Assembly (NCBI GenBank): GCA_043812955.1
Contig: JBDRLN010000064.1
Coordinates: 326-64,325, forward strand
Origin: Candidatus Omnitrophota bacterium
GTDB lineage: Bacteria > Omnitrophota > Gorgyraeia > Gygaellales > Profunditerraquicolaceae
Reading direction: 5' to 3'
DNA: 64,000 nucleotides
Position 1 is the first letter of the stretch. Each line of letters begins with the position of its first letter. The notes under the pieces are model-generated. The model ran no database searches. It worked only from the letters and a program-made list of their open reading frames with translations, and was not told where the DNA came from. The position numbers were made by a program, and so were the translations under genes. This document shows, piece after piece, positions 41,479 to 57,513 of the stretch.

Positions 41479-42072
41479 ATGTGGTATTGGGTATTTTGCG
41501 CGATATTCTCGGTAATAGGCAGGTCGCTATTTAGATTAAAAGTAGAGGGTCTGGAAAATATACCCTCGAAAACTAATTTTATAATAGTCTCTAATCATAA
41601 TAGTTTTCTTGACCCTTTGGTATTTATGGCGGTTATTCCTAAAAAAGTATATTGCATCGCTTTAAGAGATATCTATAAAATCAACTGGATGTCCTGGTTT
41701 TTAAAGGCCGCGGAGACTTTGCCCAGTGGTAGCGCATCGATTAAAGCAGTAAACCTATTACAGCTGAACAAAAATATAGGTTTATTCCCCGAAGGGGGAA
41801 TCAGTCGTGATGGTAAACTAAAAGAATTCAGAAGGGGCGCTGCTTTATTAGCCTATAAAACCGGACGCCCGATACTCCCTTGTGCGATATTAGGAACCTA
41901 TGAATCGCTTCCTTTTGGCTCACGGATCCCAAGGCTGCGGCCCATAAAACTTAAGATCGGAAAACCTATTTATTTTAGTAAAGAATTCGACGAAGAGATA
42001 GATAGCCTGTCGTTACAAGACGGTATACTCAAAATCAGAACTACGATCAAAGGAATGTTAAATGCAAAATAA
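41479..42072 (+). CDS. plsC: 1-acyl-sn-glycerol-3-phosphate acyltransferase family
   Basis: NHNSFLDP (HX4D) and FPEGG motifs. Confidence 0.8.
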   Translation: MWYWVFCAIFSVIGRSLFRLKVEGLENIPSKTNFIIVSNHNSFLDPLVFMAVIPKKVYCIALRDIYKINWMSWFLKAAETLPSGSASIKAVNLLQLNKNIGLFPEGGISRDGKLKEFRRGAALLAYKTGRPILPCAILGTYESLPFGSRIPRLRPIKLKIGKPIYFSKEFDEEIDSLSLQDGILKIRTTIKGMLNAK

Positions 42073-43633
42073 TGAGTTGTTTGAAATAGCGTTAAGCAGA
42101 GTGATTCCGGCTGAGAAATGGAGAATAATACGCCTGCTGACTAAGGTCTGGGAATTTCCTTCCTACATAGGCTGTGTCAAAGAGGCCTCAGTTATCCAAA
42201 AAAAACATAACACTATGCGCACAAAATGGCGGATCCAGGTAGACCACGTGCCGATCAGTTGGATAGAAGAAGATACTCTGGACCTTAAAGAAAATGCCAT
42301 TTACTTTAAAGCGATTGAAGGAGACTTGCCGGAATTCCAGGGTAAATGGTCATTTTACAGCCATCCTGACGGAACAGAAGTTAAGGTAAATGTCTTTCTT
42401 AAGGTCGGTATACCGGCAATCAACGATTTCGCGGATAATTATATAAAAAAATTAGTCACCAAAAATTTTGAGGCAATTCTAGAGGCAATAGAGCGTAGGC
42501 TGATCTCTACTAAATATTCCAGCTATAAACGCGGCAACAAAAATAAAATAGCTGGGTTCGGCATTATCGCCCATCTATATAATTATTGCCATCTGGAAAA
42601 ATGCCTGACTACTTTAAAACCAGGCATTAAGATGCCTTCCCGGGCTTTCCTGCAGCAGCTATATCAGATTACCCCGTCATTTAAGCTCTACGATATTGGT
42701 AAGTTCACTTCTAAAACCGGTGATACGCTAAAAGGATGTGTAGTCATGGCCACTTTTATCCCGGATATGATAGAGCAGGATCAATGGGCAGTCTTCTCCA
42801 AGATCACTAAGGCCTGCAAGATCGCTGAAAAAAACGGAATAGGGATAGTTACTCTTTCCTGTTTCGCATCGATGGTGCCGCAGAAAATCGACCATAATGT
42901 TTCGGATGATGTGCAGATCCCGATAACCACGGGAAATTCATTTACCGTGGCCATGGTTATGGAATCTTTATTAAAAGCCTGCCGTTTACTGCGTATTGAT
43001 TTAAAGCATTCAAAATGCGCTATTATCGGAGGCTGCGGAGATATCGGAAGCGCCTGTGCTCAGATCCTAACAGAAAAGGTAAATCAACTTTGTCTTGCCG
43101 GCAGAACTCCTGCGAAGCTAAAAAGTTTAAGCGATGAACTTACCCGTAAACACAAAGCTAAAATAATCACAAGTACTGATAATGAATTGGCGATTAAGGA
43201 TGCAGATATAGTGATTTGCGCGGCTAACCCCAGCGCCTCAATCATAAACATTAACTGGTTTAAGCCCGGAGCTGTAATCTGCGACGTAGGATACCCTAAA
43301 AATACTCCATATTTTTCCAGCCGCGAAGATATTTTAATATTCTCCGGTGGTTTGGTAAAATCCCCGACACCAATAAATTTCCCAATAGATATGGGCCTGC
43401 CTGCCCCGGATATCCTCTATGCCGCTTATGCCGAAGGTATAATACTGGCATTTGAAAAAAGATATGAAAATTTCACTCCGGAAAAAGGAAATATTACCCC
43501 AGAAATGGTTGATGAGATAAAAAAACTCGGGGCTAGGCATGGATTCGAAACAGCGGACTTTTACTGGGAAGGAAAATTGATCAGCGCTGAAAAGATCAAT
43601 AAAATAAAGAAAATCAAACAATTGATAAAATAA
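42062..43633 (+). CDS. fusion protein: N-terminal SRPBCC (polyketide cyclase/START-like) domain + full acyl-ACP reductase (AAR, cyanobacterial aldehyde-forming type) domain
   Basis: AAR-like blocks FGIIAHLYN, TTGNSFTVAMV, IIGGCGDIGSACAQIL, ICDVGYPKN, LYAAYAEGIILAFE, ARHGFE align with Synechococcus AAR; N-terminal ~170 aa resembles the SRPBCC ligand-binding fold. Confidence 0.65.
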   Translation: MQNNELFEIALSRVIPAEKWRIIRLLTKVWEFPSYIGCVKEASVIQKKHNTMRTKWRIQVDHVPISWIEEDTLDLKENAIYFKAIEGDLPEFQGKWSFYSHPDGTEVKVNVFLKVGIPAINDFADNYIKKLVTKNFEAILEAIERRLISTKYSSYKRGNKNKIAGFGIIAHLYNYCHLEKCLTTLKPGIKMPSRAFLQQLYQITPSFKLYDIGKFTSKTGDTLKGCVVMATFIPDMIEQDQWAVFSKITKACKIAEKNGIGIVTLSCFASMVPQKIDHNVSDDVQIPITTGNSFTVAMVMESLLKACRLLRIDLKHSKCAIIGGCGDIGSACAQILTEKVNQLCLAGRTPAKLKSLSDELTRKHKAKIITSTDNELAIKDADIVICAANPSASIININWFKPGAVICDVGYPKNTPYFSSREDILIFSGGLVKSPTPINFPIDMGLPAPDILYAAYAEGIILAFEKRYENFTPEKGNITPEMVDEIKKLGARHGFETADFYWEGKLISAEKINKIKKIKQLIK

Positions 43634-43643
43634 TTAATATTCA

Positions 43644-44741
43644 ATGAAAAAAGTTAAACCTCATTTTGCTTTTTTAATTCACCCGCCAGAACTTAAGGAT
43701 GTTTCTAAGCGATACCCTATTGCTAATTATATACCTGGATTTATCTTGGAAAAGATCCTTCGGATTTTACCACCGCTGATCGGAACGCAGATAACCGGTT
43801 TTAAATTAAACGGTAAAGAAATCCCGGGCATAATAGTAATTTGCCCACTCACAGCCCAACAAATGTTAAAATATCCGCAGCTCGCAGAGAAAAAGGTTAC
43901 TCAAAGCGTTCTCCTGGCTGAACGCCTGGGTTGCGAGTATATCGGCCTAGGTGCCTTTACCTCCATAGCTACAGATGGAGGTCTAAGTTTAATAAATAAG
44001 GTTAATAATATTAAATTAACTTCAGGTAACGTTTATGCCGCTGCCCTTATTATTGAAAATATTCAAAAAGCTGCCAAAATATTAAATACGGACATTTCTA
44101 AAGCCAGTCTGGCGATCGTAGGCGCCGCAGGTTCAGTTGGTTCGGCCTGCTCAAGAATACTCAGTAAAAAAGTAAATAAGATCATACTTATTGACAAAAG
44201 GTTCGATGAATTAGGCAAAATAGCGCAAGTTATAAAATCTAATAATAACCAGATCGATCTCGAATATTATCCCAATATACCATCGCCTATCCATGCGGAT
44301 ATCGTGGTTTCTGTTGCTAGCGCGTCAAAAGGTATAATTGAATCCTCACATCTAAGGCCAGGCACTATTGTTATTGATGCAGCTCAACCTCATAATGTTT
44401 CAGCAAAAGTCCTGGAAACGCGCAATGATGTAATAATCATCCATTCCGGAATAGCATATTTAGCGGGAATAGATTTACAAATGAACATCGGCCTGAACAA
44501 AGAAGAGATCTATGCCTGCCTGGGAGAAGTGTTAATGCTTATGTATCGAAACTGGGATAATCACTATAGCCTGGGGCCAGTAAATCCCGAACTTGTAGAA
44601 GAAGTACTGGTATATGCGCCGAAAATCGGATTACGGGTAGCTGATTTTCGTAATGGAAAAAAAATGGTTAAAGATGAAGATATTATTAGAGTAATAAAGA
44701 GTTGTCATAGCGGAGAGAAAAATGGCTTATCAAGTCTGTAA
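43644..44741 (+). CDS. acyl-ACP reductase (AAR) family paralog, stand-alone
   Basis: FAFLIHPPELKDV, LGAFTSI, VGAAGSVGSACSRIL, YACLGEVLMLMYRNWDNHYSLG match AAR blocks. Confidence 0.7.
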   Translation: MKKVKPHFAFLIHPPELKDVSKRYPIANYIPGFILEKILRILPPLIGTQITGFKLNGKEIPGIIVICPLTAQQMLKYPQLAEKKVTQSVLLAERLGCEYIGLGAFTSIATDGGLSLINKVNNIKLTSGNVYAAALIIENIQKAAKILNTDISKASLAIVGAAGSVGSACSRILSKKVNKIILIDKRFDELGKIAQVIKSNNNQIDLEYYPNIPSPIHADIVVSVASASKGIIESSHLRPGTIVIDAAQPHNVSAKVLETRNDVIIIHSGIAYLAGIDLQMNIGLNKEEIYACLGEVLMLMYRNWDNHYSLGPVNPELVEEVLVYAPKIGLRVADFRNGKKMVKDEDIIRVIKSCHSGEKNGLSSL

Positions 44742-45756
44742 TAAGTGTATTCTTGATACAAATATCCCTTATATTAATTTTAATAACGACGGTGTTTGTA
44801 ATATATGCGTTGATCATCAAAAGGCTCTAACGGGTGAGCCGATTAAAGATTACGAAAGGTTAGAGAAAAAATTCGCAAAATTGGTAAAAACAAATAATAA
44901 AAAAATCAAGTATGACTGTTTATGCCTTTATAGCGGAGGCAAAGACAGCACTAATATGCTTTATAACCTAGTAAAAAAACACAATCTTAAAGTGTTGGCT
45001 TTTACGCTGGATAACTGGTTTCTCTCAAAACAAACCTACTCCAATATCAATAAGGTTTTATCGAAATTGAATATTGATCATATAATTTTCAAACCTTCCT
45101 GGAACTTAACGGAATCTTTATTTAAATCCGGGATTTATAAGACTGGAAATTCAAAAGAAGCTCAAAAAATGTCATTTCTGATAGGCCATGTTTGCTGGCC
45201 TTGTTTTGTTATGATTAGTATTTTTTCAATCAAAACAGCTTTAGAAAAGAATATACCCAATATTATAGTCGGCACTACTCCCGGTCAGCTTACCCAAAAG
45301 GAGAGCACTCTTTTAAGTAAATATTCCGGAATAACTGATGTGTATAAAAAAATGATACTCCCTTTTTTAAAAATACTGGATAACGATGAAAAATATTATT
45401 TGAATTTATCGCTGGGTGAAAAACTCAAGAGCCTAAAGCTTAAACTTGTACCTTTTTATGAATACCATCGATATTGCGAAGAAGACGTTTTTAAAACAGT
45501 TGAAACTGAATTTGGATGGCAAAAACCGCAGGATACTGATTCCTGCAGCAGTAATTGCTCGATTAATTCCCTGGGCATATTAATTCATAGGAAAAAATAT
45601 AATATCAGTCCGTATTTAATCCCCCTGGCTCATGATGTAAGGGAAGGCTTAGTAAATCGGGAGAAGGCCATGAGCGATACATCTTCAGTCATCGACGAAA
45701 ATCTGGCGCGGGATATGGCGGCAAAACTGAATATTAACTGCGAAGACATCTTATGA
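44722..45756 (+). CDS. N-acetyl sugar amidotransferase-like PP-loop ATP pyrophosphatase (WbuX/PseA-like)
   Basis: N-terminal Cys cluster CNKC...CNIC followed by the PP-loop YSGGKDST. Confidence 0.65.
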   Translation: MAYQVCNKCILDTNIPYINFNNDGVCNICVDHQKALTGEPIKDYERLEKKFAKLVKTNNKKIKYDCLCLYSGGKDSTNMLYNLVKKHNLKVLAFTLDNWFLSKQTYSNINKVLSKLNIDHIIFKPSWNLTESLFKSGIYKTGNSKEAQKMSFLIGHVCWPCFVMISIFSIKTALEKNIPNIIVGTTPGQLTQKESTLLSKYSGITDVYKKMILPFLKILDNDEKYYLNLSLGEKLKSLKLKLVPFYEYHRYCEEDVFKTVETEFGWQKPQDTDSCSSNCSINSLGILIHRKKYNISPYLIPLAHDVREGLVNREKAMSDTSSVIDENLARDMAAKLNINCEDIL

Positions 45757-47960
45757 GCTTTAGATTAATTAATTATATTATTTCTTATGCTCTAGTGGGC
45801 ACGGTATTAACCTACCTGGCTTGCTTTATTTATTTCAGAGACAGAAAAAACTGGTTATTCAAAATTTTCGCTCTTTACAATTTATCTATCGCCTGGTGGT
45901 GCATTTTCTCAATACCTGCAATAATAGCCCCTAATAACGAGACCGGCGTATTGTGGTGCAGAATATTTATCAGCGGCGTTATTTTTATGCCCACCCTGGT
46001 TCTGCATTGCGCTTATTTACTATTAGGATATTCAGATAATAATAAATGTAAACTTATATTAAAAATATCCTACCTGTTATCTTTTATATTTTTACTTTTA
46101 AACTTTACGCCTTTTTTAATTCCAGCGGCTGAAAAAAAGTCGACTTTACTTTCTTATACGGTACCGGGACCGTTTTTTCATCTTCATGTTTTACACTTCT
46201 TTTTTATTATGCTCTACGCAGAAACCCTTTATTTAACCCATTATTTAAAAATCAGGGTTAAGGAAAAAATAGAAAGCAGGAAATACCTGTATTATTTTCT
46301 TTCATCTGTCATAGCTACTTTAGGCGGTGGCGCCAATTATCTTCCTGTTTATAGGTTTGAAATTCCATTCCTGAATCCTTACGGGACATATACAATTCTT
46401 TTATACGCCTCAGTTGTTACTTATACAATTATCCGCTACCGCTTTCTAAATACGTCTGTTATTATTACTCGCGCGGGTATATTTTTAGGTGTTTACGCTA
46501 TTGTCCTGGGATGCCCGTTTATCCTCGCAACCTCAGGGAAAAGCCCTCTTGTCAATCTATTCGGCCCGCTTTGGTGGGCCGGGCCGTTGGTTTTAATGGC
46601 TTCTTTGGGGACCTTGGGACCGTTTGTTTATATCTCCCTGCGCAAAAAAGCCGATGCCATACTCTTAAGAGAACAGCTGCGCTATCAGGATATCTTAAAA
46701 CTGGCGGCAGTAGATATGACCCGGATCCGCAACCTGCAAAAATTACTGGATTTTATTGCCCAAATCATCACTGAATCTGTGCGCATTTCCCATTCAGTAA
46801 TATATTATTTTAATCCGGAGAGTAAGCGTTTTGAATTGAAAGCCGGGATCAACTTAAATAAAAACCAGCCAACTGTAATCGATAATAAAAATAAGTTAGC
46901 CGCTTGGCTCGAGAAAAACAAACTGCCTCTGGTTTATGAAGAGATTAGAGATAGATCTAAAAATCATCCTGAATTTGTGGAATTAGAAAAACAGATGCGT
47001 TTGTTAAATGCTGATGTGGCTTTACCCTGTATCCTGGAGAATAAATTACTGGATATTATTATATTGGGGAAGAAGCTTTCAGGAAATATCTATACCTCTG
47101 ACGATCTGGATAACTTCCTTACTTTAGCAAAAGAAACCGCCTTGGCTACGGAAAATGCCCAACTATATGGGAAAATAGAGGAAGATGTGAAGCAAAGGAC
47201 CAAAGACCTGGTGGAGCTTCAAAAACAACTTATCCAGGCAGAAAAATTAGCCACCGTAGGTACGCTTGCTGGCGGCGTAGCCCATGAAATAAATAATCCC
47301 CTGACTGCGATCTTAACTAATGTCCAGATGCTCTTAAGATCGGATGAGTTAGATAAAGAGTCGCTAGAGATGATCGAAGAAGCGACTAAACGCTGCAAGA
47401 CTATTGTTCAGAAATTAATGGTTTACGCCAAAAAACCGCATCAGGAAACAATCGCTCCTTCTAAGATAAATTTAAAGGATACTCTTAATAGCGCTATCGC
47501 CTTCCTGAAATATCAATTTGAGCAGGATAATATAAAAATCAATATCGATGCCCTCAGGGATACTTATTTAGTTGAAGGCAACCAGAATGAGCTAGAGCAG
47601 GTAATAACCAACATAATACTCAATGCCAAAGATGCCATTAAACAAATTAAAAAAAGTGGTATAATAGAGTTGTCTCTAACGCAAACTGAAAGTTCGGTTA
47701 AAGTTGAAATCAAGGATGATGGAGTAGGAATTTCTAAAGATATAATCAACCGGATATTTGACCCTTTTTTTACCACTAAAGACGTGGGTAAAGGCTTAGG
47801 CCTGGGACTTTCGATCTGCCAATCTATCCTGGAAAAACATAAAGGAAAAATCACGGTCCGCTCTGAAATTAATAAAGGAGCGGTGTTTACTATTATATTA
47901 CCCGGCTTAAAAGATATCGACAGAGCAAATAGCTTAAAAGATGGAGGCCGCAATGGCTAA
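45753..47960 (+). CDS. sensor histidine kinase: multi-TM (7TM-type) N-terminal domain + GAF + HisKA + HATPase
   Basis: 7-8 TM helices; H-box AHEINNPLTAI; G-boxes DDGVGI and GKGLGLGLSI. Confidence 0.85.
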   Translation: MSFRLINYIISYALVGTVLTYLACFIYFRDRKNWLFKIFALYNLSIAWWCIFSIPAIIAPNNETGVLWCRIFISGVIFMPTLVLHCAYLLLGYSDNNKCKLILKISYLLSFIFLLLNFTPFLIPAAEKKSTLLSYTVPGPFFHLHVLHFFFIMLYAETLYLTHYLKIRVKEKIESRKYLYYFLSSVIATLGGGANYLPVYRFEIPFLNPYGTYTILLYASVVTYTIIRYRFLNTSVIITRAGIFLGVYAIVLGCPFILATSGKSPLVNLFGPLWWAGPLVLMASLGTLGPFVYISLRKKADAILLREQLRYQDILKLAAVDMTRIRNLQKLLDFIAQIITESVRISHSVIYYFNPESKRFELKAGINLNKNQPTVIDNKNKLAAWLEKNKLPLVYEEIRDRSKNHPEFVELEKQMRLLNADVALPCILENKLLDIIILGKKLSGNIYTSDDLDNFLTLAKETALATENAQLYGKIEEDVKQRTKDLVELQKQLIQAEKLATVGTLAGGVAHEINNPLTAILTNVQMLLRSDELDKESLEMIEEATKRCKTIVQKLMVYAKKPHQETIAPSKINLKDTLNSAIAFLKYQFEQDNIKINIDALRDTYLVEGNQNELEQVITNIILNAKDAIKQIKKSGIIELSLTQTESSVKVEIKDDGVGISKDIINRIFDPFFTTKDVGKGLGLGLSICQSILEKHKGKITVRSEINKGAVFTIILPGLKDIDRANSLKDGGRNG

Positions 47961-48336: not shown

Positions 48337-48339
48337 GAT

Positions 48340-50776: not shown

Positions 50777-50921
50777 GTGAGGGCATAAGTTATGGAGCTG
50801 GACATAATAAACAAGGCGTCCGCCACAAAGTCGCCACAGGAATTGGCGACCCGCCAAGCTATGTGGAGGGATCGGCGGATCCGCCAATATTTATGGCGGA
50901 ACATAACTTATATATCCATAC

Positions 50922-51038: not shown

Positions 51039-51058
51039 TCATTAAAGGAGAGTATAAA

Positions 51059-51310: not shown

Positions 51311-51344
51311 AAATAATCGCTTTTCCCAATTATGAGGTGATAAA

Positions 51345-51791: not shown

Positions 51792-51869
51792 AATTATTGA
51801 CAAACGCGTAAATCCCATTTATAATCGTTCTTAGAAAGTATACATTAATGTTAACTAACAAGGAACGAT

Positions 51870-52550
51870 ATGGAAAAAGAATATGCCCTCAATCTATCCT
51901 CCCAAATCGGAATTGACGTACAGCAGGTGGTCAGAGAAGAGATCGAGCTTATTTTCCTTAAGGCCCTTTTTGAATCAAAAATTTCAGATTCATTAGTTTT
52001 TAAGGGCGGCACAGCCCTGCGGCTTATATATAATTCGCCGCGTTTCTCAGAGGACCTCGATTTTTCCCTGACTGCCGCGATAACCTACCGTGATTTTAAA
52101 ACAATAATTTCCAGGATAATCAAATCGGATGATCGTTTTTCCATAAACGACCTGGCTGAAAAATTTTACACCTGCCTGGCTGAAATCCGGGTAAAAGAAG
52201 CCTGGATGGACCAGGCATTCTCGCTTAAAATCGAAGTATCTAAACGCCCGGAAAAAATAAAATCAGCGAATCTCGCAAATATGCTGGCAAAATCTCCCGC
52301 TACCAACTTAATGGTCATGACTAAGGTATATACGCTTAAAAAGATACTTGAAGATAAACAGCGTTTGCTTTCCGAACGAAAAATGCCCCGGGACATCTTT
52401 GATACCTGGTATATCTGCCAAAAAACCGGGGAACCATTTACTTTTAAACAATTCGGTTATCCCAAAGGAAAAATCCGCCAGGAATTAAGAAAATTTCTTC
52501 CCCGCGGTTTTTACTCGGTTATTGATGAACTGGAGAAATTAAATGCTTAA
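51870..52550 (+). CDS. AbiEii/AbiGii-family nucleotidyltransferase (type IV TA toxin-like)
   Basis: FKGGTALRLIYNSPRFSEDLDFS nucleotidyltransferase motif. Confidence 0.6.
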   Translation: MEKEYALNLSSQIGIDVQQVVREEIELIFLKALFESKISDSLVFKGGTALRLIYNSPRFSEDLDFSLTAAITYRDFKTIISRIIKSDDRFSINDLAEKFYTCLAEIRVKEAWMDQAFSLKIEVSKRPEKIKSANLANMLAKSPATNLMVMTKVYTLKKILEDKQRLLSERKMPRDIFDTWYICQKTGEPFTFKQFGYPKGKIRQELRKFLPRGFYSVIDELEKLNA

Positions 52551-53124
52551 GGTATATGAAGCCCTGCTTAATTTAGATAAACGCTACCTTAGCGCCAGGG
52601 AAATAGCGCGCATACTCAATATCAGCTCCGGAAATAGAAAAGTATCGATAAGCAGGCTTACAAAGAGGAAGATACTGCGTAGGCTCAGGCGCAATCTTTA
52701 CGAAGTATCGCTAAAACCAACGGATATCCTTGAAGCCGCTAACAGCGTTTACCAACCGAGTTATCTTTCATTTACCTATTGCCTGGGCAAACTCGGGTTA
52801 TTGAACCAGATCGCTTATGAAATAGAATTTGCCACCCCAAAGAAAACAAAGAGGATTGAAATCCGCGGCCGCGGCGTGATCTTCCGCAAAATTAAAAAAG
52901 AATTATTTTTTGGTTACGAGCTTAACGACAATATTTTTACAGCGAAGCCTGAGAAGGCGCTTTTGGATACATTATATTTAAAAACAAAAGGCCTGGCGGT
53001 TATCAATGAGAAAGAACTTAATCTTAAAGATATTAATAAACAGAAAATAATCACGATGAGCAGGAAATTTCCGCTCAAAGTCCAGCAAGAAACAAAAAAA
53101 CTTATTTCAAAATATGTCAAATAA
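52543..53124 (+). CDS. AbiEi-like antitoxin/transcriptional regulator (winged-helix N-domain)
   Basis: N-domain LSAREIARILNIS...RLTKRKILRRLRRNLYEV resembles the AbiEi antitoxin domain; 8-nt overlap with the upstream NTase gene. Confidence 0.5.
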   Translation: MLKVYEALLNLDKRYLSAREIARILNISSGNRKVSISRLTKRKILRRLRRNLYEVSLKPTDILEAANSVYQPSYLSFTYCLGKLGLLNQIAYEIEFATPKKTKRIEIRGRGVIFRKIKKELFFGYELNDNIFTAKPEKALLDTLYLKTKGLAVINEKELNLKDINKQKIITMSRKFPLKVQQETKKLISKYVK

Positions 53125-54214
53125 ACCCGCGATATTCCTGACCGGAGCTACGGGATTAGTCGGATCATACCTATTAAAACTATTCCTGGAAAAAAACCAT
53201 AAAGTTTTTGCCTTAGGCAGGGGTAAAAACGAGAAAACTACCATAGAAAGGGTAATGGAGGTTTTGAGATTCTGGGATAAAAATATACCAAACAGCAAAA
53301 TTAATAATCTCCAGATTATAGAAGGCGACGTAGCTGAAAATAATCTAGGGCTGGATAAAAACAGCAGAAAAATGCTGGCTCTGGAGACAGAAGAAATCTT
53401 CCATTCCGCAGCTATCACTGATCTGCACCGGCCGATAAAAGAAATCAACAAGGTCAACGTAGGTGGCACCAGAAACATCATGATTTTCGCTGAAAAACTG
53501 AATAAAGAACGCCTGGTAAAAGTAAATCACATCAGCACCGCTTATATTTACGGCAATTATAGGGGCGTATTCAAGGAAGATTCCCTAGACGTCAAACAGA
53601 AATTTAATACCAATTATGAAAGTTCCAAGTTCGAAGCCGAAAAACTGATCAGTGAATTCCGCAAGAAAGGACTTTGGATAGATATTTTTCGGCCGTCAAT
53701 GGTTACCGGAGACACCAAAACCGGAAAGACCTTCCAATTCCGCCATATCTACCAATTCATTAACCTCTGCTGCTTAGAAATATTTGACACCCTGCCGCTG
53801 AAAAACGGTAGGGTAAGCTTGGTTCCTATAGATGTTTTCTCCGAAGCCGCGTATGTTATAACCAGGAAGAACCGGGCCAAATGCGCGAATTATCATCCTT
53901 TTCCGGCTAAACTGGTCAGCGTGGAGAAAATCGTTGATTTAGGCCATCAGATCATTGGCTTTAAGAAGCCAAAATTGGTCCTGCCCGAAGAATTCCGGAT
54001 GGATACCCTGACTCCTTCCCAGAGATTAATTCTACGGGGAACTATTCTGGCAATAAACTTCCAGACTAAGCTTAATTCTAACTATACTAAGCAAATCTTA
54101 AAAAAATATCATTTTAATATGCCTGAAATCACCAATAAATTGCTGGCTAAGAATATTGAATATTTCAAGGATAATATCCGAATCGGAGGCGTCTACCATG
54201 ACCGGAAGATTTGA
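53114..54214 (+). CDS. thioester-reductase (TR) domain protein / fatty acyl reductase (NAD_binding_4, SDR-type)
   Basis: IFLTGATGLVGSYLL Rossmann motif; FHSAAITD...NVGGTRNIM...VNHISTAYIYG matches TR-domain blocks. Confidence 0.7.
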   Translation: MSNKPAIFLTGATGLVGSYLLKLFLEKNHKVFALGRGKNEKTTIERVMEVLRFWDKNIPNSKINNLQIIEGDVAENNLGLDKNSRKMLALETEEIFHSAAITDLHRPIKEINKVNVGGTRNIMIFAEKLNKERLVKVNHISTAYIYGNYRGVFKEDSLDVKQKFNTNYESSKFEAEKLISEFRKKGLWIDIFRPSMVTGDTKTGKTFQFRHIYQFINLCCLEIFDTLPLKNGRVSLVPIDVFSEAAYVITRKNRAKCANYHPFPAKLVSVEKIVDLGHQIIGFKKPKLVLPEEFRMDTLTPSQRLILRGTILAINFQTKLNSNYTKQILKKYHFNMPEITNKLLAKNIEYFKDNIRIGGVYHDRKI

Positions 54215-55472
54215 TTACATAATCGTGGGCGCCGGCCTCTGCGGACTTACTTTAGCCAAAGGACTTAGCCAGAAAAACAAAAAAGTCCTGGTCTTGGAAC
54301 AGGGTGGCTATATTAAGAAATTTGGCAATTTATTATACGCAGCTTCAATTTACGATAAATTCACTCTATCTAAAAGTAGACAGGGATTTATAATTCTGCG
54401 CTCATTTGGAGTAGGCGGAACAAGCATAGTCAGCTGCGGCAATGCCGTGGAATTTCCTGAGGAAGAAATAAATAAGATAGGTATAGATTTCCGCAGCGAA
54501 TTGGATTCAGCAAAAAAAGAATGCTGCCAAACCACCAAACACCCTATTGGAAAAGCTTCAATGAAGATAATGAAAACTGCTAATCAATTAGGATACGATA
54601 TGCAACCAATGCCCAAACTCGGTTTAGAAAAATGTGTATCTTGTGGCAATTGCATTTTAGGGTGCGGTCATCTGGCAAAATGGACTGCAGCAGAATACCT
54701 CAAAGATATTAATAAACATGATGTTTGTATAATTACCGGTTTTAAAGTCAAAAAGGTATTGAGCTCCGCTGGTAAAGCAATAGGAATAGAAGGAAGCGGT
54801 GGTTTATTCTCAAGTCAAAAATATTTTTCCGATAAAATAATCCTTTCTGCCGGAGGTATCGGTACTCCGATCATATTGCAAAAATCAGGAGTAGAAGAAG
54901 CTGGAAAAAGTCTTTTTGTGGATTTTTTCACCAATATATACGGGATCAATAAAGAATTTAACCAGGCTAAAGAAGTAAGTATGTCGGTGGTCTGCGCAAA
55001 ATTTCACAAGAAAGACGGCTTTATACTTTCACCTTTTATTGACAGTTCAATCGGGCTTTTAGCCTGCGTTGAGATTAAACACGCCGGTTACGCTCTAAAG
55101 CTAAATAGCCTGATGGGATTAATGAATAAAATTAACGATGATAATGTTGGCCGGGTTTATCCCAACGGCGCTGTTGACAAAGCACTCACTCAAAATGACT
55201 GGAAAAAATTAAGAAAAGGCAATGAAATAGCTACAGAAATCCTGATTAAAAGCGGGGTGAATCCTAAGAGTATATTTATTACCTTGCCCAGAGGAGCGCA
55301 TCCCGGAGGAACAGCTGCTATTGGTAAAGTTGTAAATACCAGCTTAGAGACTAAAATAAAAAATCTTTACGTTTGTGATTGCAGTGTATTACCGGAAGCT
55401 CCCGGTTTTCCGCCAATCTTGACCCTGATCGCCATTTCCAAATGGTTTGCTAAGAATGTTTTGTTGAAATAA
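54198..55472 (+). CDS. GMC-family FAD-dependent oxidoreductase-like protein
   Basis: N-terminus DYIIVGAGLCGLTLA (FAD fingerprint); C-terminal GGTAAIGKVVNTSLETKIKNLYVCDCSVLP resembles the GMC C-terminal motif; start at 54198 after RBS GGAGG. Confidence 0.55.
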   Translation: MTGRFDYIIVGAGLCGLTLAKGLSQKNKKVLVLEQGGYIKKFGNLLYAASIYDKFTLSKSRQGFIILRSFGVGGTSIVSCGNAVEFPEEEINKIGIDFRSELDSAKKECCQTTKHPIGKASMKIMKTANQLGYDMQPMPKLGLEKCVSCGNCILGCGHLAKWTAAEYLKDINKHDVCIITGFKVKKVLSSAGKAIGIEGSGGLFSSQKYFSDKIILSAGGIGTPIILQKSGVEEAGKSLFVDFFTNIYGINKEFNQAKEVSMSVVCAKFHKKDGFILSPFIDSSIGLLACVEIKHAGYALKLNSLMGLMNKINDDNVGRVYPNGAVDKALTQNDWKKLRKGNEIATEILIKSGVNPKSIFITLPRGAHPGGTAAIGKVVNTSLETKIKNLYVCDCSVLPEAPGFPPILTLIAISKWFAKNVLLK

Positions 55473-56056
55473 TGAGCATATTAAAATTAATTAAACAAAG
55501 AACAGCGGTTAGAAAGTATAAAAATAAAGCTATTTCTGCTAAAAGAATAGCAAAAATAATAGAGGCTGGAATATGGGGCCCGTCTATTCATGGTATACAA
55601 TCTTGGAAATTCGTAATAGTACATAATAAAAACATAATTAATAAAATTTCGAATATAACGGCTAAAAAATCTAAAAAAATTAATATTCCAACTTTTATTT
55701 CAATTCCGACTATAAAAGCACTCGCCAGTACAGAAATACTCATTTGCATATATAATACCAGAAAATTTAGCTTATTTGCCAGTAGATTAAATAAGTTATA
55801 TAAGAAGAATGCTGAAGTTGCAGAATTATCAGCAATTTCGGCAGCTATTCAGAATATGATTCTTACTGCAGAAGACCTTAAAATTGGGTCGTGTTGGCTA
55901 GATATGCCATTGTTCTGCAAAGAGGATATCAGCCATATAATAAAAGAACCTACAGGAGAATTAGTAGCGCTTTTAACTCTAGGGTATGCTGTCGACACAA
56001 GAAAATATAGAACACCACGTAAAATAACTAAAGAAACAGTTAGGTATCTAAAATAG
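55472..56056 (+). CDS. nitroreductase-family flavoprotein
   Basis: LIKQRTAVRKYKNKAIS N-terminal nitroreductase motif; size ~190 aa. Confidence 0.65.
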   Translation: MSILKLIKQRTAVRKYKNKAISAKRIAKIIEAGIWGPSIHGIQSWKFVIVHNKNIINKISNITAKKSKKINIPTFISIPTIKALASTEILICIYNTRKFSLFASRLNKLYKKNAEVAELSAISAAIQNMILTAEDLKIGSCWLDMPLFCKEDISHIIKEPTGELVALLTLGYAVDTRKYRTPRKITKETVRYLK

Positions 56057-56058
56057 GC

Positions 56059-57513
56059 ATGAATAAGGAGTACGATATAATAATTATTGGGGCTGGAATC
56101 GGCGGACTAACCTGTGGTTGTTATCTGGCGAAGGCTGGCTTAAAGGTTCTAATCGTAGAGCAACATTATAAAGCAGGAGGATATTGCACTTCTTTTGAAA
56201 GGCAGGGGTATAAATTTGATGTTGGAGTACATTATTTCGGAGGAATAAAAAAAGGTATTTTAAGTGTTATCCTTGATGACTTAAATTTAAGAAAAACAAT
56301 AAAGTTTAAACAGTTTAATCCTACCGATAAAATAATTACCCCAAAAGCTACCACATATATTAGGTCTAATCCCAAAGATACTATCCGAGAATTTAAGGAT
56401 AACTTTCCATCGGAAAACATGAACATTGATGCATTCTTTAAATTTATAAAACAAGATAATTTTATTAATATTTACAAAAGAACATCAAAGGTGACTTTTA
56501 ATGATGTCTTGGACGAATTTTTTAAGAACCAGGTTTTAAAAGCTACCTTTAACGTCCTTTTAAGGAATATCGGATTATGCGCCAACGATGCATCGGCCCT
56601 AGCAACAATAATATTCCTGAGAGAATACATACTTGATCCCGGATATTATCCTGAAGGCGGAATACAAAAATTTCCTGAAGCCCTACTCGATAAATTCAGG
56701 GAATATGGCGGAATGGTTATGTTAGCTCAAAAGGTAAATAAAATTATTACCGGGAATAATCAAGTTAGGGGTGTCCGGCTTAAGAACGAAAAAACAATTA
56801 AAGCCAGGTATGTAATTTCAAATGCCGATGTCACTGAAACCTTTGGGGAATTGCTTGATATAAAAACAGAGGAATTAAAAAAAATAAGGAAGTTAGCTAT
56901 TTCACCTTCGGCTTTTATTGTTTACCTTGGCTTAAATGAAGATTTCATAAAGCAGATAAAGGATCCGTGCAATATATGGCCTTTTTCAACTTATAGCCTG
57001 ACCAAATCTCCAATTAATCATAAGAACGACATACTTAAAGGAAAACCATTATTAAGCTTACTTACTTTTCCTCATTCCCATGATTTAACTTATAAAAATC
57101 GGAAAAAACCAACAATGCAATTAATGGGGTTAACTTATTATGAATCAAAAGGATTTTGGGCAAAAAATAGAGACAAACTAACTAATAAATTGATAATAGA
57201 AGCTGAAAAATTATTTCCGTCTTTGAAGAAATATATTGTTATAAAAGAGAGCGCTACACCAATTACCTGTAAAAGATATACTTCAAACAGCTATGGCTCT
57301 GCTTTTGGCTGGGCTTCAACAGTTAAACAAATTAATCCTTTAGCTTCTCCGGCAAAAACCTCTATTAAAGGATTATTTCTCACTGGACATTGGTGTACTG
57401 TGGGAAGCGGACAGGGAGGGATCCCAAAAGTAGCTTTCTCTGGCAGAAGAACAGCTAGTTTAATTTTGAAGGAATGTGCCATAAAGTCGTATTTAAGTGA
57501 CTACCTATTATAA
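56059..57513 (+). CDS. phytoene-desaturase-family (CrtI-like) FAD-dependent oxidoreductase/desaturase
   Basis: YDIIIIGAGIGGLTCGCYLAKAGLKVLIVEQHYKAGGYCTSF dinucleotide-binding motif; amine-oxidase/CrtI-like length. Confidence 0.7.
   Translation: MNKEYDIIIIGAGIGGLTCGCYLAKAGLKVLIVEQHYKAGGYCTSFERQGYKFDVGVHYFGGIKKGILSVILDDLNLRKTIKFKQFNPTDKIITPKATTYIRSNPKDTIREFKDNFPSENMNIDAFFKFIKQDNFINIYKRTSKVTFNDVLDEFFKNQVLKATFNVLLRNIGLCANDASALATIIFLREYILDPGYYPEGGIQKFPEALLDKFREYGGMVMLAQKVNKIITGNNQVRGVRLKNEKTIKARYVISNADVTETFGELLDIKTEELKKIRKLAISPSAFIVYLGLNEDFIKQIKDPCNIWPFSTYSLTKSPINHKNDILKGKPLLSLLTFPHSHDLTYKNRKKPTMQLMGLTYYESKGFWAKNRDKLTNKLIIEAEKLFPSLKKYIVIKESATPITCKRYTSNSYGSAFGWASTVKQINPLASPAKTSIKGLFLTGHWCTVGSGQGGIPKVAFSGRRTASLILKECAIKSYLSDYLL

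What the first reader, a model, noticed from the sequence alone, without database searches (positions are those of the whole stretch)
41479..57513. Candidate novel lipid/polyketide-type biosynthetic island with fatty-aldehyde-forming reductases, a KS/CLF pair and redox tailoring
From plsC (41479) through the FabF-like KS (50776), every junction overlaps or nearly abuts, which suggests one operon. The overlaps or gaps are 42072/42062, 43633/43644, 44741/44722, 45756/45753, 47960/47941, 48336/48340 and 49566/49559.

The gene set is:
- plsC
- SRPBCC-AAR fusion
- second AAR paralog
- PP-loop amidotransferase
- 7TM-GAF histidine kinase and receiver
- dead KS (chain-length-factor-like)
- active KS
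- then ACP and FabZ-like dehydratase
- then a TR-domain reductase, GMC oxidoreductase, nitroreductase and CrtI-like desaturase

This combines type-II-PKS logic (KSalpha/KSbeta, discrete ACP, SRPBCC cyclase-like fold) with the cyanobacterial alkane-pathway reductase AAR but no ADO partner, plus two further redox enzymes (GMC, CrtI-like). Downstream glycosyl/acyl transferases (61408-64000) could attach a product to a lipid head group.

I do not recognise this combination as a described pathway. It is reminiscent of, but does not match, aryl-polyene, ladderane or hydrocarbon clusters.
Basis: partly seen in the sequence, partly recalled or inferred. Interest (0 to 1): 0.88.

Follow-up and report, generated by a model that had tools for sequence, protein, structure and literature searches.

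The report
Ladderane-like lipid locus in Omnitrophota
This is a conserved membrane-lipid gene locus of an uncultured Omnitrophota bacterium that joins the unusual fatty-acid-synthase parts described as unique to ladderane-making anammox bacteria to aldehyde-forming reductases and an acyltransferase; its product is unknown, but it gives a natural comparison set for an unsolved lipid pathway.

Summary
The gene set and the tight junctions are real. The window comes from Candidatus Omnitrophota.

The locus is not a foreign island. It is a syntenic block of at least 22 genes (41259 to beyond 64000), and parts or all of it recur across the phylum.

**Synthase core.** The dead KS, active KS, ACP and FabZ are the closest relatives of the anammox "Cluster I" proteins:
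- Identities are 45, 54, 43 and 48%.
- Both KS clades join their anammox counterparts with 100% bootstrap support.
- FabZ carries both amxFabZ hallmark substitutions.
- The CrtI-like enzyme is nearer to Kuste3607 than to true CrtI.
- The Cluster I B12-radical-SAM gene is absent here, but homologues occur in other Omnitrophota loci.

**Phylum-wide core.** This is PlsC-type acyltransferase, then the SRPBCC/AAR-like fusion, then a 7TM histidine kinase and a receiver.
- In this genome the fusion has lost the AAR catalytic Cys (Ala). The adjacent paralog keeps it.
- In relatives, the slot after the fusion holds carbonyl-tailoring enzymes.

It missed an AbiE toxin-antitoxin pair and a small HTH gene. 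The aromatic type II PKS and alkane-pathway readings are not supported.

**Best reading.** A dedicated acyl-ACP assembly line feeds acylation and reduction to aldehyde, making an unusual membrane lipid.

Verdict: new variant of a known kind; interest moderate to high.

The parts
41259..41447 (+). HTH_17 small DNA-binding protein (62 aa), the first gene of the module
   Evidence: ORF found by translation. An HTH_17 gene sits at the same place before plsC in L001, L003, L004, L085 and L090.
41479..42072 (+). PlsC-family acyltransferase (197 aa)
   Evidence: Pfam Acyltransferase 87.6 bits. The best NCBIfam models are acyl-[ACP]--phospholipid O-acyltransferases. HNSFLD and FPEGG motifs are intact. 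It lies directly upstream of the fusion in 49 of 76 species loci.
42062..43633 (+). SRPBCC (START-like) domain fused to an AAR-like NAD(P) reductase domain. The catalytic-Cys position is Ala455 in this genome.
   Evidence: Pfam Polyketide_cyc plus Rossmann hits. TIGR04058 scores 141 bits against a cutoff of 450. PDB 6jzu AAR E 6e-29, with the C294 position aligned to Ala. The same position is Cys in most Omnitrophota orthologues. The codon is GCT, against TGT and TCT in relatives.
43644..44741 (+). AAR-like paralog (AAR2) that keeps the catalytic Cys (C292)
   Evidence: PDB AAR E 3e-23, with Cys aligned to C294. TIGR04058 scores 101 bits and the PigE N-terminal domain model 134 bits. Cys-containing AAR2 genes follow the fusion in L001, L012, L051, L059 and L085.
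44722..45756 (+). WbuX-like PP-loop ATP-dependent amidotransferase-type protein
   Evidence: TIGR03573 scores 131 bits against a cutoff of 203. The SGGKDS motif is present. There is only a weak PDB hit to an N-acetyl sugar amidotransferase. The gene was seen only in the window lineage.
45753..47960 (+). 7TM sensor histidine kinase HK1
   Evidence: HisKA_7TM, HisKA and HATPase_c domains. A kinase of this type follows the fusion within 4.5 kb in 43 of 47 species loci.
47941..48336 (+). Stand-alone receiver RR1
   Evidence: Response_reg only, 131 aa. It is conserved after HK1.
48340..49566 (+). KSb: catalytically dead, chain-length-factor-like ketosynthase, counterpart of anammox amxFabFmut
   Evidence: The triad is Phe/Ser/Glu. 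It scores 364 bits and 45% identity to 9s5h_C. It forms a clade with amxFabFmut at 100% bootstrap. All 120 homologues examined lack the triad.
49559..50776 (+). KSa: active ketosynthase, counterpart of anammox amxFabF2
   Evidence: Cys-His-His is intact. It scores 478 bits and 54% identity to 9s5h_B; the next best hits are Iga11 at 335 bits and FabF at 307 bits. It forms a clade with amxFabF2 at 100% bootstrap. The fabF equivalog score of 407 is below the 494 cutoff.
50777..51058 (+). Strongly structured 282-nt spacer between KSa and ACP, not shared with the closest relative
   Evidence: RNA fold -92.6 kcal/mol, z -3.9. The relative L087 has an unrelated 71-nt spacer. There is no other copy in the held DNA and no Rfam match.
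51059..51310 (+). Dedicated acyl carrier protein
   Evidence: PP-binding domain. The best PDB hit is amxACP 9s5i_E, 43% identity. The acpP equivalog score of 46 is below the 70 cutoff. The start was taken from gene calls in L085/L087.
51345..51791 (+). FabZ-type dehydratase of the amxFabZ kind
   Evidence: The best PDB hits are amxFabZ 7qv0/8ayb at 140 bits, against 110 for canonical FabZ. Tunnel Ile (AQASIIL) and a hydrophobic residue at the ACP patch are both present.
51797..51825 (+). Perfect sigma-70 consensus promoter (TTGACA-17-TATAAT) in front of abiEii
   Evidence: It is the only 12/12 match in 19.5 kb.
51870..53124 (+). AbiEii nucleotidyltransferase toxin and AbiEi antitoxin pair, probably an inserted cassette rather than a pathway gene
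   Evidence: Pfam AbiEii 69 bits. PADLOC AbiEii 91 bits and AbiEi 92 bits. The pair is 100% identical to the relative while its neighbours are 93-97.5% identical. It is absent between FabZ and TR in L001 and L090.
53114..54214 (+). Stand-alone thioester-reductase-type SDR (TR)
   Evidence: NAD_binding_4 167 bits; TIGR01746 scores 150 bits. GATGLVG and YESSK motifs are present. It follows FabZ directly in L001 and L090.
54198..55472 (+). Short GMC-family flavoprotein oxidoreductase
   Evidence: GMC_oxred_N and GMC_oxred_C domains. In 7 other species a GMC gene sits directly after the fusion.
55472..56056 (+). Nitroreductase-fold flavoprotein
   Evidence: Nitroreductase 88 bits; the best NCBIfam model is the FbiB C-terminal domain. 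It is conserved before HK2 in L058 and L090.
56059..57513 (+). CrtI-family flavoprotein, closer to anammox Kuste3607 than to phytoene desaturase
   Evidence: crtI_fam scores 138 bits against a cutoff of 238. It is 33% identical (162 bits) to Kuste3607, against 22% (69 bits) to P. agglomerans CrtI. The family is found across Omnitrophota.
57521..59740 (+). 7TM-GAF sensor histidine kinase HK2
   Evidence: HisKA_7TM, GAF and HATPase_c domains. It is conserved in L016, L019, L037, L056 and L090.
59874..60242 (+). Stand-alone receiver RR2
   Evidence: Response_reg domain only.
60239..61405 (+). GAF-HD-GYP-type phosphodiesterase
   Evidence: HD_5 124 bits plus GAF. It is syntenic in L016, L019, L037, L056 and L090.
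61408..62523 (+). MGDG-synthase-like (GT28) glycolipid glycosyltransferase
   Evidence: MGDG_synth 92 bits; the diglucosyl-DAG synthase model scores 230 bits. It is syntenic in L016, L026, L037 and L090.
62535..63392 (+). Lipid A-type (LpxL-like) acyltransferase
   Evidence: Lip_A_acyltrans 160 bits. It is syntenic in L016, L026 and L090.
63392..64000 (+). Family-2-like glycosyltransferase; the ORF runs off the window end
   Evidence: The translation reads MKTCVIIPTYNE...DDGSLDNT. A Glycos_transf_2 gene sits at the same place in L090.

Best explanation
This is a lipid-biosynthesis locus of Omnitrophota, much of it recurring across the phylum, built from three linked parts.

**A. Dedicated type II synthase.** The components are an active ketosynthase KSa paired with a dead, CLF-like KSb, their own ACP, and a FabZ with a narrowed tunnel. 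They are the counterparts of the anammox 'Cluster I' proteins. By analogy with the characterised anammox heterodimer, KSa/KSb primes by decarboxylating malonyl-ACP and elongates acyl chains on the dedicated ACP. Ketoreduction and enoyl reduction come from genes outside this window. The Kuste3607-like flavoprotein probably desaturates or isomerises the chain.

**B. Branch point for the acyl-ACP.** The Aas/PlsC-like acyltransferase esterifies the chain onto a glycerolipid. The AAR-type reductase AAR2 reduces the thioester to a fatty aldehyde. In this genome the SRPBCC-AAR fusion has lost its nucleophile and probably serves as a lipid-binding partner. The aldehyde is then processed by carbonyl-handling enzymes: the TR reductase, the GMC flavoprotein and the PP-loop enzyme. 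The result would be an alcohol or another reduced chain, possibly for an alkyl (ether) or otherwise non-ester linkage.

**C. Control and head-group genes.** Two 7TM histidine-kinase/receiver pairs and an HD-GYP protein control or sense the process. The GT28, LpxL-like and GT2 enzymes build the glycolipid context.

**Status of each claim**
- Shown: gene content, motifs, closest-relative relationships and synteny.
- Inferred from characterised homologues: KS/CLF priming, the short-chain bias of FabZ, and aldehyde formation by a Cys-bearing AAR.
- Speculative: the final product, ether linkage included, and the regulatory role of the kinases.
For: **Gene order, junctions and domains:**

**Organism and conservation**
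- The best homologues are Omnitrophota MAG proteins.
- Across the 80 species loci returned by one scan of GTDB species representatives, PlsC lies directly upstream of the fusion in 49 of 76 loci. A 7TM kinase lies within 4.5 kb downstream in 43 of 47.
- The whole order, HTH to GT2, recurs in a 1.62-Mb Omnitrophota contig (L090) and in GCA_041643395.1.

**Synthase core**
- The best PDB hits are anammox proteins: KSa 478 bits against 335 for the next hit; KSb 364 against 279; FabZ 140 against 110; amxACP is the top ACP hit.
- Identities are 54, 45, 48 and 43%.
- In the NJ tree both clades join their anammox counterparts with 100% bootstrap.
- The amxFabZ hallmarks Ile69 and a hydrophobic residue at 115 are present here and in all cluster FabZs examined.
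- The KSb family lacks the triad in 120 of 120 members.
- The biochemistry of the anammox heterodimer and FabZ comes from 10.64898/2026.05.19.726425 and PMC10139942.
- The CrtI-like protein is nearer to Kuste3607 (162 bits) than to CrtI (69 bits).

**Link between the ACP and the AAR module**
- An ACP of this type sits directly before plsC in L040, L049 and L058.

**Aldehyde hub**
- AAR homology and Cys status.
- The slot after the fusion holds these families:
  - NAD_binding_4 SDRs (8 proteins)
  - GMC oxidoreductases (7)
  - B12-rSAM enzymes (4)
  - formyltransferases (3)
  - aminotransferases (2)
  - a LuxD-like acyltransferase
  - an AMP-ligase plus PlsC fusion

**Motifs:** the PlsC, TR and PP-loop motifs are intact.
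Against: - No product is known for any member of this family, the anammox cluster included.
- FabG, FabD and an enoyl reductase are not in the window, so the synthase is not self-contained.
- The amx-type KS cassette lies within 10 kb of the fusion in only 7 of 32 species loci with enough flank. The two modules are therefore not always physically linked.
- In one deep lineage a canonical-type FabF occupies the KS position (L073). This fits an ordinary housekeeping role.
- Loss of the fusion's Cys is not always matched by a Cys-bearing paralog nearby (L005, L036, L090).
- No enzyme known to form an ether bond (AGPS, PlsA/Ger) is present.
- AAR and PigE homology is distant; TIGR04058 scores of 141 and 101 bits fall far below the 450-bit cutoff.
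Confidence: 0.55

Rival explanations
1. Ordinary housekeeping. The locus is simply the FAS II and phospholipid/glycolipid machinery of Omnitrophota. The KS/CLF pair is the lineage's normal elongation enzyme, and the products are ordinary membrane acyl chains.
For: - Parts of the locus recur across the phylum, and upstream synteny with housekeeping genes (valS, nadC, uvrB, coaX) is shared with several relatives.
- Composition is ordinary.
- gpsA and acpS lie in the same window.
- A 1.62-Mb genome carries the whole block.
- A canonical-type FabF occupies the same position in L073.
- KSb-type proteins are very common in several anaerobic phyla: 6730 hits at E<=1e-20.
Against: - KSa, KSb and the ACP fall below the NCBIfam equivalog cutoffs. 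FabZ falls below TIGR01750 but passes the PRK00006 FabZ model.
- FabZ carries the tunnel Ile that goes with a preference for chains of up to about eight carbons in the anammox enzyme. amxFabZ also does not accept substrates on canonical ACP (PMC10139942).
- Anammox bacteria keep a canonical FAS II beside this set.
- The absence of FabG, FabD and FabI here implies that other fab genes exist elsewhere.
- Three thioester reductases plus GMC and CrtI-like enzymes are not part of ordinary phospholipid synthesis.
Confidence: 0.25
2. Polyene or pigment-type secondary metabolite. The cluster would be a highly reducing type II PKS, like the aryl-polyene or ishigamide systems. With no enoyl reductase, it would make a conjugated polyene acyl chain that the PlsC-like enzyme anchors to a lipid.
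For: - The KSa clade is sister to the ishigamide KS Iga11 at 98% bootstrap.
- There is no ER in the cluster.
- The FabZ of relatives also hits the ApeI/ApeP-like families.
- A PlsC-like acyltransferase and a glycosyltransferase recall ApeD and ApeJ (own knowledge of APE clusters).
- A CrtI-like enzyme is present.
Against: - There is no starter-unit enzyme (ammonia lyase or CoA ligase), no thioesterase and no LolA/MMPL export genes.
- Phylum-wide conservation in very small genomes of dark, anoxic habitats argues against a pigment.
- The CLF residue is Tyr/Phe.
Confidence: 0.1
3. Lipid-signal module. The SRPBCC-AAR protein makes or binds a fatty aldehyde or alcohol that the adjacent 7TM kinase senses. 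The locus would be mainly a signalling or homeostasis circuit for membrane state.
For: - In 29 of 56 species loci the fusion gene abuts or overlaps the 7TM kinase gene with nothing between.
- The kinase and receiver are the most constant neighbours, present in 43 of 47 loci.
- A 7TM kinase also follows the KS cassette in a Nitrospirae MAG.
- Both receivers lack output domains, and an HD-GYP protein follows.
Against: - Co-occurrence does not show that a ligand is sensed.
- The PlsC partner and the tailoring enzymes point to bulk lipid chemistry.
- No experimental precedent for such sensing was found in the library.
Confidence: 0.1
4. Ladderane biosynthesis, or alkane formation by an AAR/ADO-type route.
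For: - Four Cluster I counterparts are present, plus a fifth weaker match to the CrtI-like enzyme Kuste3607.
- AAR homologues are present.
Against: - There is no B12-rSAM in the window and no ADO-like gene.
- The same cassette occurs in Nitrospirae and other phyla.
- Ladderanes are reported only from anammox bacteria.
Confidence: 0.03

Closest known systems
Anammox 'Cluster I' (KustE3603-3608: amxACP, amxFabZ, amxFabF2, amxFabFmut, phytoene-dehydrogenase homologue, B12 radical SAM), the putative ladderane cluster
   Same: - A KS plus dead-KS pair, with the dead copy encoded just upstream.
- A dedicated ACP.
- A FabZ with the tunnel Ile and a hydrophobic ACP-patch residue.
- A CrtI-family flavoprotein closer to Kuste3607 than to CrtI.
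- Identities of 43-54%, and clades with 100% bootstrap for both KS types.
   Different: - There is no B12-rSAM in this window. Kuste3608-like genes (35-37% identity) do sit next to the fusion in five other Omnitrophota loci (L011, L028, L030, L031, L060).
- The CLF residue is Phe/Tyr rather than Val/Thr.
- The host is Omnitrophota, not an anammox bacterium.
- Here the cassette is joined to the PlsC, AAR-type reductases and 7TM kinases.
- The product is unknown in both systems.
Cyanobacterial acyl-ACP reductase AAR (TIGR04058; PDB 6JZU) and the AAR-like N-terminal domain of PigE
   Same: - The same fold and the same NAD(P) motif.
- AAR2 and most fusion orthologues keep the nucleophilic Cys.
- The expected chemistry is reduction of an acyl thioester to an aldehyde.
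- In L036 and L040 an aminotransferase sits in the slot after the fusion, which recalls the reductase-plus-aminotransferase architecture of PigE (for L036; for the second).
   Different: - Homology is distant: 141 and 101 bits against a cutoff of 450.
- There is no ADO partner.
- The N-terminal SRPBCC fusion is specific to Omnitrophota and a few other PVC genomes.
- The fusion in this genome has Ala in place of Cys.
Myxobacterial ElbD/Elb ether-lipid system
   Same: - The logic is the same: thioester reductase, carrier protein, AGPAT/PlsC-type acyltransferase and NAD-dependent SDRs (PMC9131029).
- ElbD-like hits have been reported in 93 of 267 Black Sea Omnitrophota MAGs (PMC11868695).
- One Omnitrophota locus (L035) has an AMP-ligase plus PlsC fusion in the slot.
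   Different: - Here the parts are separate genes, and the reductase is of the AAR type rather than FAR/NAD_binding_4 alone.
- No sequence comparison with ElbD was possible.
- How ElbD forms the ether bond is itself unknown.
Highly reducing type II PKS / aryl-polyene systems (Iga11/Iga12, ApeO/ApeC)
   Same: - A heterodimeric KS/CLF, a discrete ACP and a FabZ-like dehydratase.
- A lipid-anchoring acyltransferase.
- The KSa clade is sister to Iga11.
   Different: - There are no starter, thioesterase or export genes.
- The locus is conserved as a core locus, not as an accessory BGC.

Membership tests
Anammox Cluster I-type synthase | Active FabF2-type KS paired with a triad-less FabFmut encoded immediately upstream | tested here: met
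   KSb has Phe/Ser/Glu and KSa has Cys/His/His. KSb lies upstream with an 8-nt overlap. Both fall in clades with the anammox proteins at 100% bootstrap.
Anammox Cluster I-type synthase | amxFabZ hallmarks: Ile in place of the tunnel Gly (position 69), and a hydrophobic residue in place of Arg/Lys at position 115 | tested here: met
   The window FabZ has AQASIIL and Met at the patch position. The tunnel Ile is present in all 13 cluster FabZs examined, Nitrospirae included; the patch residue is never Arg/Lys in them (Met, Leu, Ile or Ala, but Ser in L035).
Anammox Cluster I-type synthase | Dedicated amxACP-type carrier protein | tested here: inconclusive
   amxACP is the best PDB hit, but only at 46.8 bits and 43% identity. 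The acpP equivalog cutoff is not reached. The 3-10 helix feature is not testable from sequence.
Anammox Cluster I-type synthase | Phytoene-dehydrogenase homologue of the Kuste3607 type | tested here: inconclusive
   It is 33% identical (162 bits) to the first 400 residues of Kuste3607, against 69 bits to CrtI. No tree was built, and only a truncated reference sequence was available.
Anammox Cluster I-type synthase | Cobalamin-dependent radical SAM enzyme (Kuste3608 type) in the cluster | tested here: not met
   tblastn with four Kuste rSAM sequences finds nothing in the window. Homologues are found in L011, L028, L030, L031, L060 and L084.
Housekeeping FAS II (fabF, acpP, fabZ equivalogs) | Scores at or above the NCBIfam equivalog cutoffs, and presence of fabD/fabG/fabI/fabH | tested here: not met
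   fabF scores 339 and 407 against a cutoff of 494. acpP scores 46 against 70. fabZ scores 148 against 155, though PRK00006 scores 144 against 113. There is no FabD, FabG, FabI or FabH in the 64 kb. Whether a second set exists elsewhere in the genome could not be tested.
Aromatic type II PKS (KSalpha/KSbeta plus cyclase) | CLF with the active-site Gln, and a stand-alone SRPBCC aromatase/cyclase | tested here: not met
   The CLF position is Phe here and Tyr or Phe in the family. The SRPBCC domain is fused to a reductase, and its best PDB hit is a START-like protein of unknown function. The actinorhodin KS and CLF score far below the FabF-like hits.
Cyanobacterial alkane pathway (AAR plus ADO) | AAR equivalog with catalytic Cys, and an adjacent aldehyde-deformylating oxygenase | tested here: not met
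   TIGR04058 scores 141 and 101 bits against a cutoff of 450. Cys is present only in AAR2. Every cluster ORF matches another family, and none is ADO-like.
Aryl-polyene cluster | Aryl starter enzymes (ammonia lyase or CoA ligase), a thioesterase, and LolA/MMPL-type export genes | tested here: not met
   None of these families appears among the cluster ORFs.
ElbD-type ether-lipid system | Homology of the reductase and acyltransferase to the ElbD domains, and ether lipids in the organism | not testable with these tools
   No ElbD sequence was available and there are no lipid data. Only the analogous domain logic is seen.

The most novel reading that the evidence does not exclude
The 'ladderane Cluster I' synthase is not specific to ladderanes. 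It would be one branch of a widespread anaerobic pathway, found in Omnitrophota, Nitrospirota and others, that builds unusual acyl chains on a private ACP.

In Omnitrophota this pathway would feed a previously undescribed AAR-type 'fatty-aldehyde hub': PlsC, the SRPBCC-AAR fusion, and a hypervariable tailoring slot. The hub would make lineage-specific non-ester lipids such as alkyl ethers, fatty amines or formamides, or rSAM-modified chains. 7TM kinases would monitor the process.

Comparing genomes with and without the Kuste3608-like rSAM would then isolate the steps that are truly specific to ladderane formation.
Probability: 0.25. Interest if true: 0.8.

Novelty: new variant of a known kind. 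Interest (0 to 1): 0.6.

Why it matters
Ladderane biosynthesis has been an open problem for two decades. Current work treats Cluster I as unique to ladderane producers.

This locus shows close counterparts in a non-anammox phylum, hallmark residues included, and the same cassette in a Nitrospirae MAG. Most Cluster I enzymes therefore probably perform a more general task. The field gains natural minus-rSAM and plus-rSAM comparison sets.

The locus also exposes a module found in many Omnitrophota species that has not been described: PlsC, the SRPBCC-AAR fusion and a 7TM kinase, followed by a variable slot of carbonyl-tailoring enzymes. The searchable library yielded nothing on the lipids of this phylum of ultra-small, possibly host-dependent bacteria. 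The module is a candidate route to ether-linked or other reduced lipids in anaerobes. If so, it bears on the origin of environmental alkyl-glycerol and branched-tetraether biomarkers.

Tried and rejected
- **Exact-sequence look-ups.** Look-ups of the window's fusion protein and of the 100%-identical CrtI-like hit found no contig on record. The rest of the source genome could therefore not be examined. The key question of whether a canonical FAS II set exists elsewhere stays open.
- **Literature.** No paper combined Omnitrophota with acyl-ACP reductase. Searches on Omnitrophota with fatty-acid, phospholipid or ether-lipid terms turned up nothing on the phylum's lipid synthesis. A search combining AAR with ether lipid gave nothing relevant. 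The main Omnitrophota genomics paper does not discuss lipids. A search for the PDB codes 9S5H/9S5I found nothing useful.
- **RNA and repeats.** Rfam found only five tRNAs, at 16.0-25.9 kb and all outside the locus. The structured KSa-ACP spacer has no other copy in the held DNA.
- **Promoters and terminators.** Counts are no higher than in shuffled sequence, apart from the single perfect promoter.
- **Paralog hand-over idea.** I considered that loss of the fusion's Cys is always compensated by a downstream Cys-bearing paralog. This holds for the window, L001 and L012, but not for L005, L036 or L090. It is kept only as a local explanation.
- **Rejected readings.** The SRPBCC domain as an aromatic polyketide cyclase is rejected (see the membership tests). 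A horizontally acquired island is rejected on composition and conserved synteny.
- **Not run.** Structure prediction and fold search were not run. Sequence-level matches already fixed the folds, and the tools would not report inter-domain geometry.

Full report
**Observation**

From plsC to the second ketosynthase, every junction is an overlap of 4-20 nt or a gap of 3-10 nt.

Pfam and NCBIfam confirm the domain list:
- PlsC-type acyltransferase
- Polyketide_cyc (SRPBCC) fused to an AAR-like Rossmann domain
- a second AAR-like protein
- a WbuX-like PP-loop protein
- a HisKA_7TM kinase and a receiver
- two ketoacyl synthases
- an ACP
- a FabZ
- a NAD_binding_4 thioester reductase
- a GMC flavoprotein
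- a nitroreductase-fold protein
- a CrtI-family flavoprotein

- An AbiEii/AbiEi pair at 51870-53124 was missed.
- A conserved 62-aa HTH_17 gene at 41259-41447 was missed.
- Pfam detects GAF in HK2 only.
- The ACP and GMC genes probably start at 51059 and 54198.

Upstream lie housekeeping genes: hom, thrC, coaB, lysC, a leuA-like gene, valS, nadC, uvrB and coaX. Further up are gpsA, pdxJ and acpS. Composition is unremarkable.

**Organism and conservation**

The best homologues of three cluster proteins are all from Candidatus Omnitrophota MAGs. One assembly, GCA_041643395.1, has the identical gene order at 85-100% protein identity.

One scan of GTDB species representatives returned 80 loci encoding the fusion protein. 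Nearly all are labelled Omnitrophota. About a dozen carry Planctomycetes-type or 'uncultured bacterium' titles, and one is titled Brocadiia. In those loci:
- PlsC lies directly upstream of the fusion in 49 of 76 loci.
- A 7TM kinase follows within 4.5 kb in 43 of 47 loci.
- An amx-type KS cassette lies within the 10-kb flank in 7 of 32 loci.

A 1.62-Mb Omnitrophota contig (L090) carries almost the same order as the window:

HTH_17 - AAR paralog - PlsC - fusion - unknown - HK - RR - RR - FabG - KSb - KSa - ACP - FabZ - TR - nitroreductase - HK2 - RR2 - HD-GYP - GT28 - LpxL-like - GT2

The feature is therefore a conserved locus of at least 22 genes that extends beyond the coordinates given. It is not an acquired island.

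**The synthase core**

KSa keeps the Cys-His-His triad. KSb has Phe/Ser/Glu at those positions, and all 120 closest homologues of KSb also lack the triad (Tyr/Phe, Ser/Ala, Glu).

The nearest solved structures of all four synthase proteins are anammox Cluster I proteins:

| Window protein | Best PDB hit | Bits (next best) | Identity |
|---|---|---|---|
| KSa | 9s5h_B, amxFabF2 | 478 (335 Iga11, 307 FabF) | 54% |
| KSb | 9s5h_C, amxFabFmut | 364 (279) | 45% |
| ACP | 9s5i_E, amxACP | 46.8 | 43% |
| FabZ | 7qv0/8ayb, amxFabZ | 140 (110 canonical) | 48% |

I built a neighbour-joining tree with canonical FabFs, Iga11 and the cluster KS genes of five Omnitrophota and one Nitrospirae MAG. It places KSa with amxFabF2 and KSb with amxFabFmut, each at 100% bootstrap.

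The two substitutions that define 'anammox-specific' FabZ are both present here. These are Ile for the tunnel Gly, and a hydrophobic residue for the Arg/Lys of the ACP patch (PMC10139942). The tunnel Ile is present in every cluster FabZ examined.

The CrtI-like protein is 33% identical (162 bits) to the available 400 residues of Kuste3607, against 69 bits to true CrtI. According to PMC4790861, Kuste3607 does not complement crtI.

A Nitrospirae MAG has the cassette FabG-KSb-ACP-FabZ-KSa-CrtI-like-KS3 followed by a 7TM kinase. Identities to the window are 60, 65, 50 and 52% for KSb, KSa, ACP and FabZ.

The 2026 preprint on the anammox pair calls the cluster unique to ladderane producers. Rattray et al. 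2009 had already found similar clusters in some Deltaproteobacteria. antiSMASH 'ladderane' calls in Omnitrophota MAGs have been reported without interpretation.

The Cluster I B12-rSAM is absent from the window. Kuste3608/2803-like genes (35-37% identity, with B12-binding, Radical_SAM and DUF4070 domains) do lie right after the fusion gene in Omnitrophota loci L011, L028, L030, L031 and L060.

**The reductive module**

Both AAR-like proteins match cyanobacterial AAR structures (E 6e-29 and 3e-23) and the AAR-like N-terminal domain of PigE. They lie far below the AAR equivalog cutoff.

- At the position of the AAR nucleophile Cys294, AAR2 has Cys and the fusion has Ala.
- The fusion codon is GCT here, TGT in the 90%-identical relative and TCT in an 83% relative. 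The change is therefore real and stepwise.
- The fusion keeps Cys in all but six of the surveyed species loci; the exceptions are L001, L005, L008, L012, L036 and L090.
- A third paralog family, located upstream of plsC in many species, never has Cys.

The gene slot between the fusion and the kinase is empty in 29 of 56 species loci. In the other 27 it holds one or two genes, 38 proteins in all:

| Slot family | Proteins |
|---|---|
| NAD_binding_4/epimerase SDRs | 8 |
| GMC oxidoreductases | 7 |
| B12-rSAM | 4 |
| Formyltransferases | 3 |
| Class I/II aminotransferases | 2 |
| ICMT/PEMT methyltransferases | 2 |
| LuxD-like acyltransferase-methyltransferase | 1 |
| AMP-ligase plus PlsC fusion | 1 |

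The slot also holds AAR2 genes in some species. This repertoire is what one expects around a carbonyl intermediate, which supports aldehyde formation.

The PlsC protein has intact HX4D and FPEGG motifs. Its best NCBIfam matches are acyl-ACP-dependent phospholipid acyltransferases. In three species the amx-type ACP gene sits immediately before plsC. That ties the carrier protein to this module.

**Mechanism proposed**

The steps, with their status:
1. KSa/KSb primes and elongates on the private ACP. This is inferred from the anammox heterodimer.
2. FabZ dehydrates, probably with a short-chain bias. This is inferred.
3. KR and ER activities are supplied from elsewhere. FabG is in-cluster in relatives but not here.
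4. The Kuste3607-like flavoprotein may add or move double bonds, and the nitroreductase-fold flavoprotein may remove them. This is speculative.
5. The acyl-ACP is either transferred to a glycerolipid by PlsC or reduced by AAR2 to an aldehyde. In this genome the Cys-less fusion would act as a lipid-binding partner.
6. TR, GMC and the PP-loop enzyme process the carbonyl.
7. GT28, the LpxL-like enzyme and GT2 provide the glycolipid context.
8. The two 7TM kinase systems and the HD-GYP protein regulate or sense the process.

An ether-linked product is attractive by analogy with ElbD systems and because anammox lipids are partly ether-linked. No ether-forming enzyme was identified, however.

**Rivals**

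- **Housekeeping.** This is the strongest rival. It gains from the recurrence of the locus across Omnitrophota and from L073, where a canonical-type FabF sits after the kinase and receiver. It loses on four points: the sub-threshold equivalog scores for KSa, KSb and the ACP, the amxFabZ hallmarks, the missing FabG/FabD/FabI, and the surplus of reductases.
- **Polyene secondary metabolite.** It fits the KSa-Iga11 relationship and the lack of an ER. It lacks starter, release and export genes.
- **Signalling.** It rests on the tight adjacency of the fusion and the kinase.
- **Ladderane or alkane synthesis.** Both are very unlikely in this genome.

**Limits**

- The rest of the genome could not be reached.
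- The anammox reference sequences were partial, reconstructed from alignments or truncated in a supplement.
- The tree is a small NJ tree.
- All functional statements beyond homology are inference.

**Verdict**

The locus is a new variant of the Cluster I-type (ladderane-like) synthase family, joined to an undescribed aldehyde-forming, acyl-transferring module found in many Omnitrophota species. The product is unknown. Interest is moderate to high, mainly as a comparative handle on ladderane biosynthesis and on Omnitrophota lipid synthesis, on which the library searches here found nothing.

Noticed in passing
window 51797-53124: An AbiEii/AbiEi toxin-antitoxin pair, toxin first, lies inside the lipid locus directly behind a perfect TTGACA-17-TATAAT promoter. 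It is 100% identical to the copy in GCA_041643395.1, while the flanking FabZ and TR are 93% and 97.5% identical. Another Omnitrophota locus (L066 19365-20622) has an AbiEii plus HTH pair at the equivalent place.
   Followed up: partly
window 50777-51058: The 282-nt KSa-ACP spacer is strongly structured (z -3.9) and rich in GGCGG/CCGCC palindromes. The closest relative has an unrelated 71-nt spacer in its place, although the flanking genes are 92-99% identical. There is no Rfam match and no second copy.
   Followed up: partly
L011 11634-13100; L028, L030 and L031 at about 11.5-13.0 kb; L060; L084 19899-21218: B12-binding radical SAM proteins, 35-37% identical to anammox Kuste3608/Kuste2803, sit immediately after the SRPBCC-AAR gene in several Omnitrophota species. 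L011 also has amx-type ACP, FabZ and KSb genes in the same locus.
   Followed up: partly
L036 4059-6109; L039 11596-13505; L040 7018-9173; L005 11569-13266: In other species the slot after the fusion holds one of three sets: an aminotransferase plus a formyltransferase (L036, and by the family counts L040), an SDR plus a formyltransferase (L039), or a LuxD-like acyltransferase fused to a methyltransferase (L005). This hints at lineage-specific fatty amine, formamide or other aldehyde derivatives.
   Followed up: partly
L073 18039-20044: A deep-branching Omnitrophota MAG has a canonical-type FabF (48% identical to B. subtilis FabF) and a 4HBT thioesterase where other lineages have the KS/CLF pair.
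   Followed up: partly
window 38217-59740 compared with L085/L087: Protein identity to the closest relative is a mosaic: 85-90% for coaX, uvrB and the fusion; 92-93% for plsC, ACP and FabZ; 94-100% for the other genes from AAR2 through HK2 (99% for RR1-KSa, 100% for AbiE). This suggests recent recombination or a sweep within the locus.
   Followed up: no
L012, L017, L020, L028, L030, L031, L038, L051, L053, L066, L081 and L090, upstream of plsC: A third AAR-like paralog family (about 310-405 aa) lies just upstream of plsC. It always has Ser, Ala, Thr, Gln or Pro at the catalytic-Cys position. It is absent from the window.
   Followed up: partly
window 4221-7457 (- strand) and 1377-4154 (+ strand): A 1078-aa ORF has no Pfam match. 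A neighbouring 925-aa protein has only a single TPR hit. Neither was examined further.
   Followed up: no
window 16032-16105, 23654-24043 and 25781-25851: Five tRNA genes, three of them clustered after the NAD(P)H-hydrate dehydratase gene. This is ordinary.
   Followed up: no
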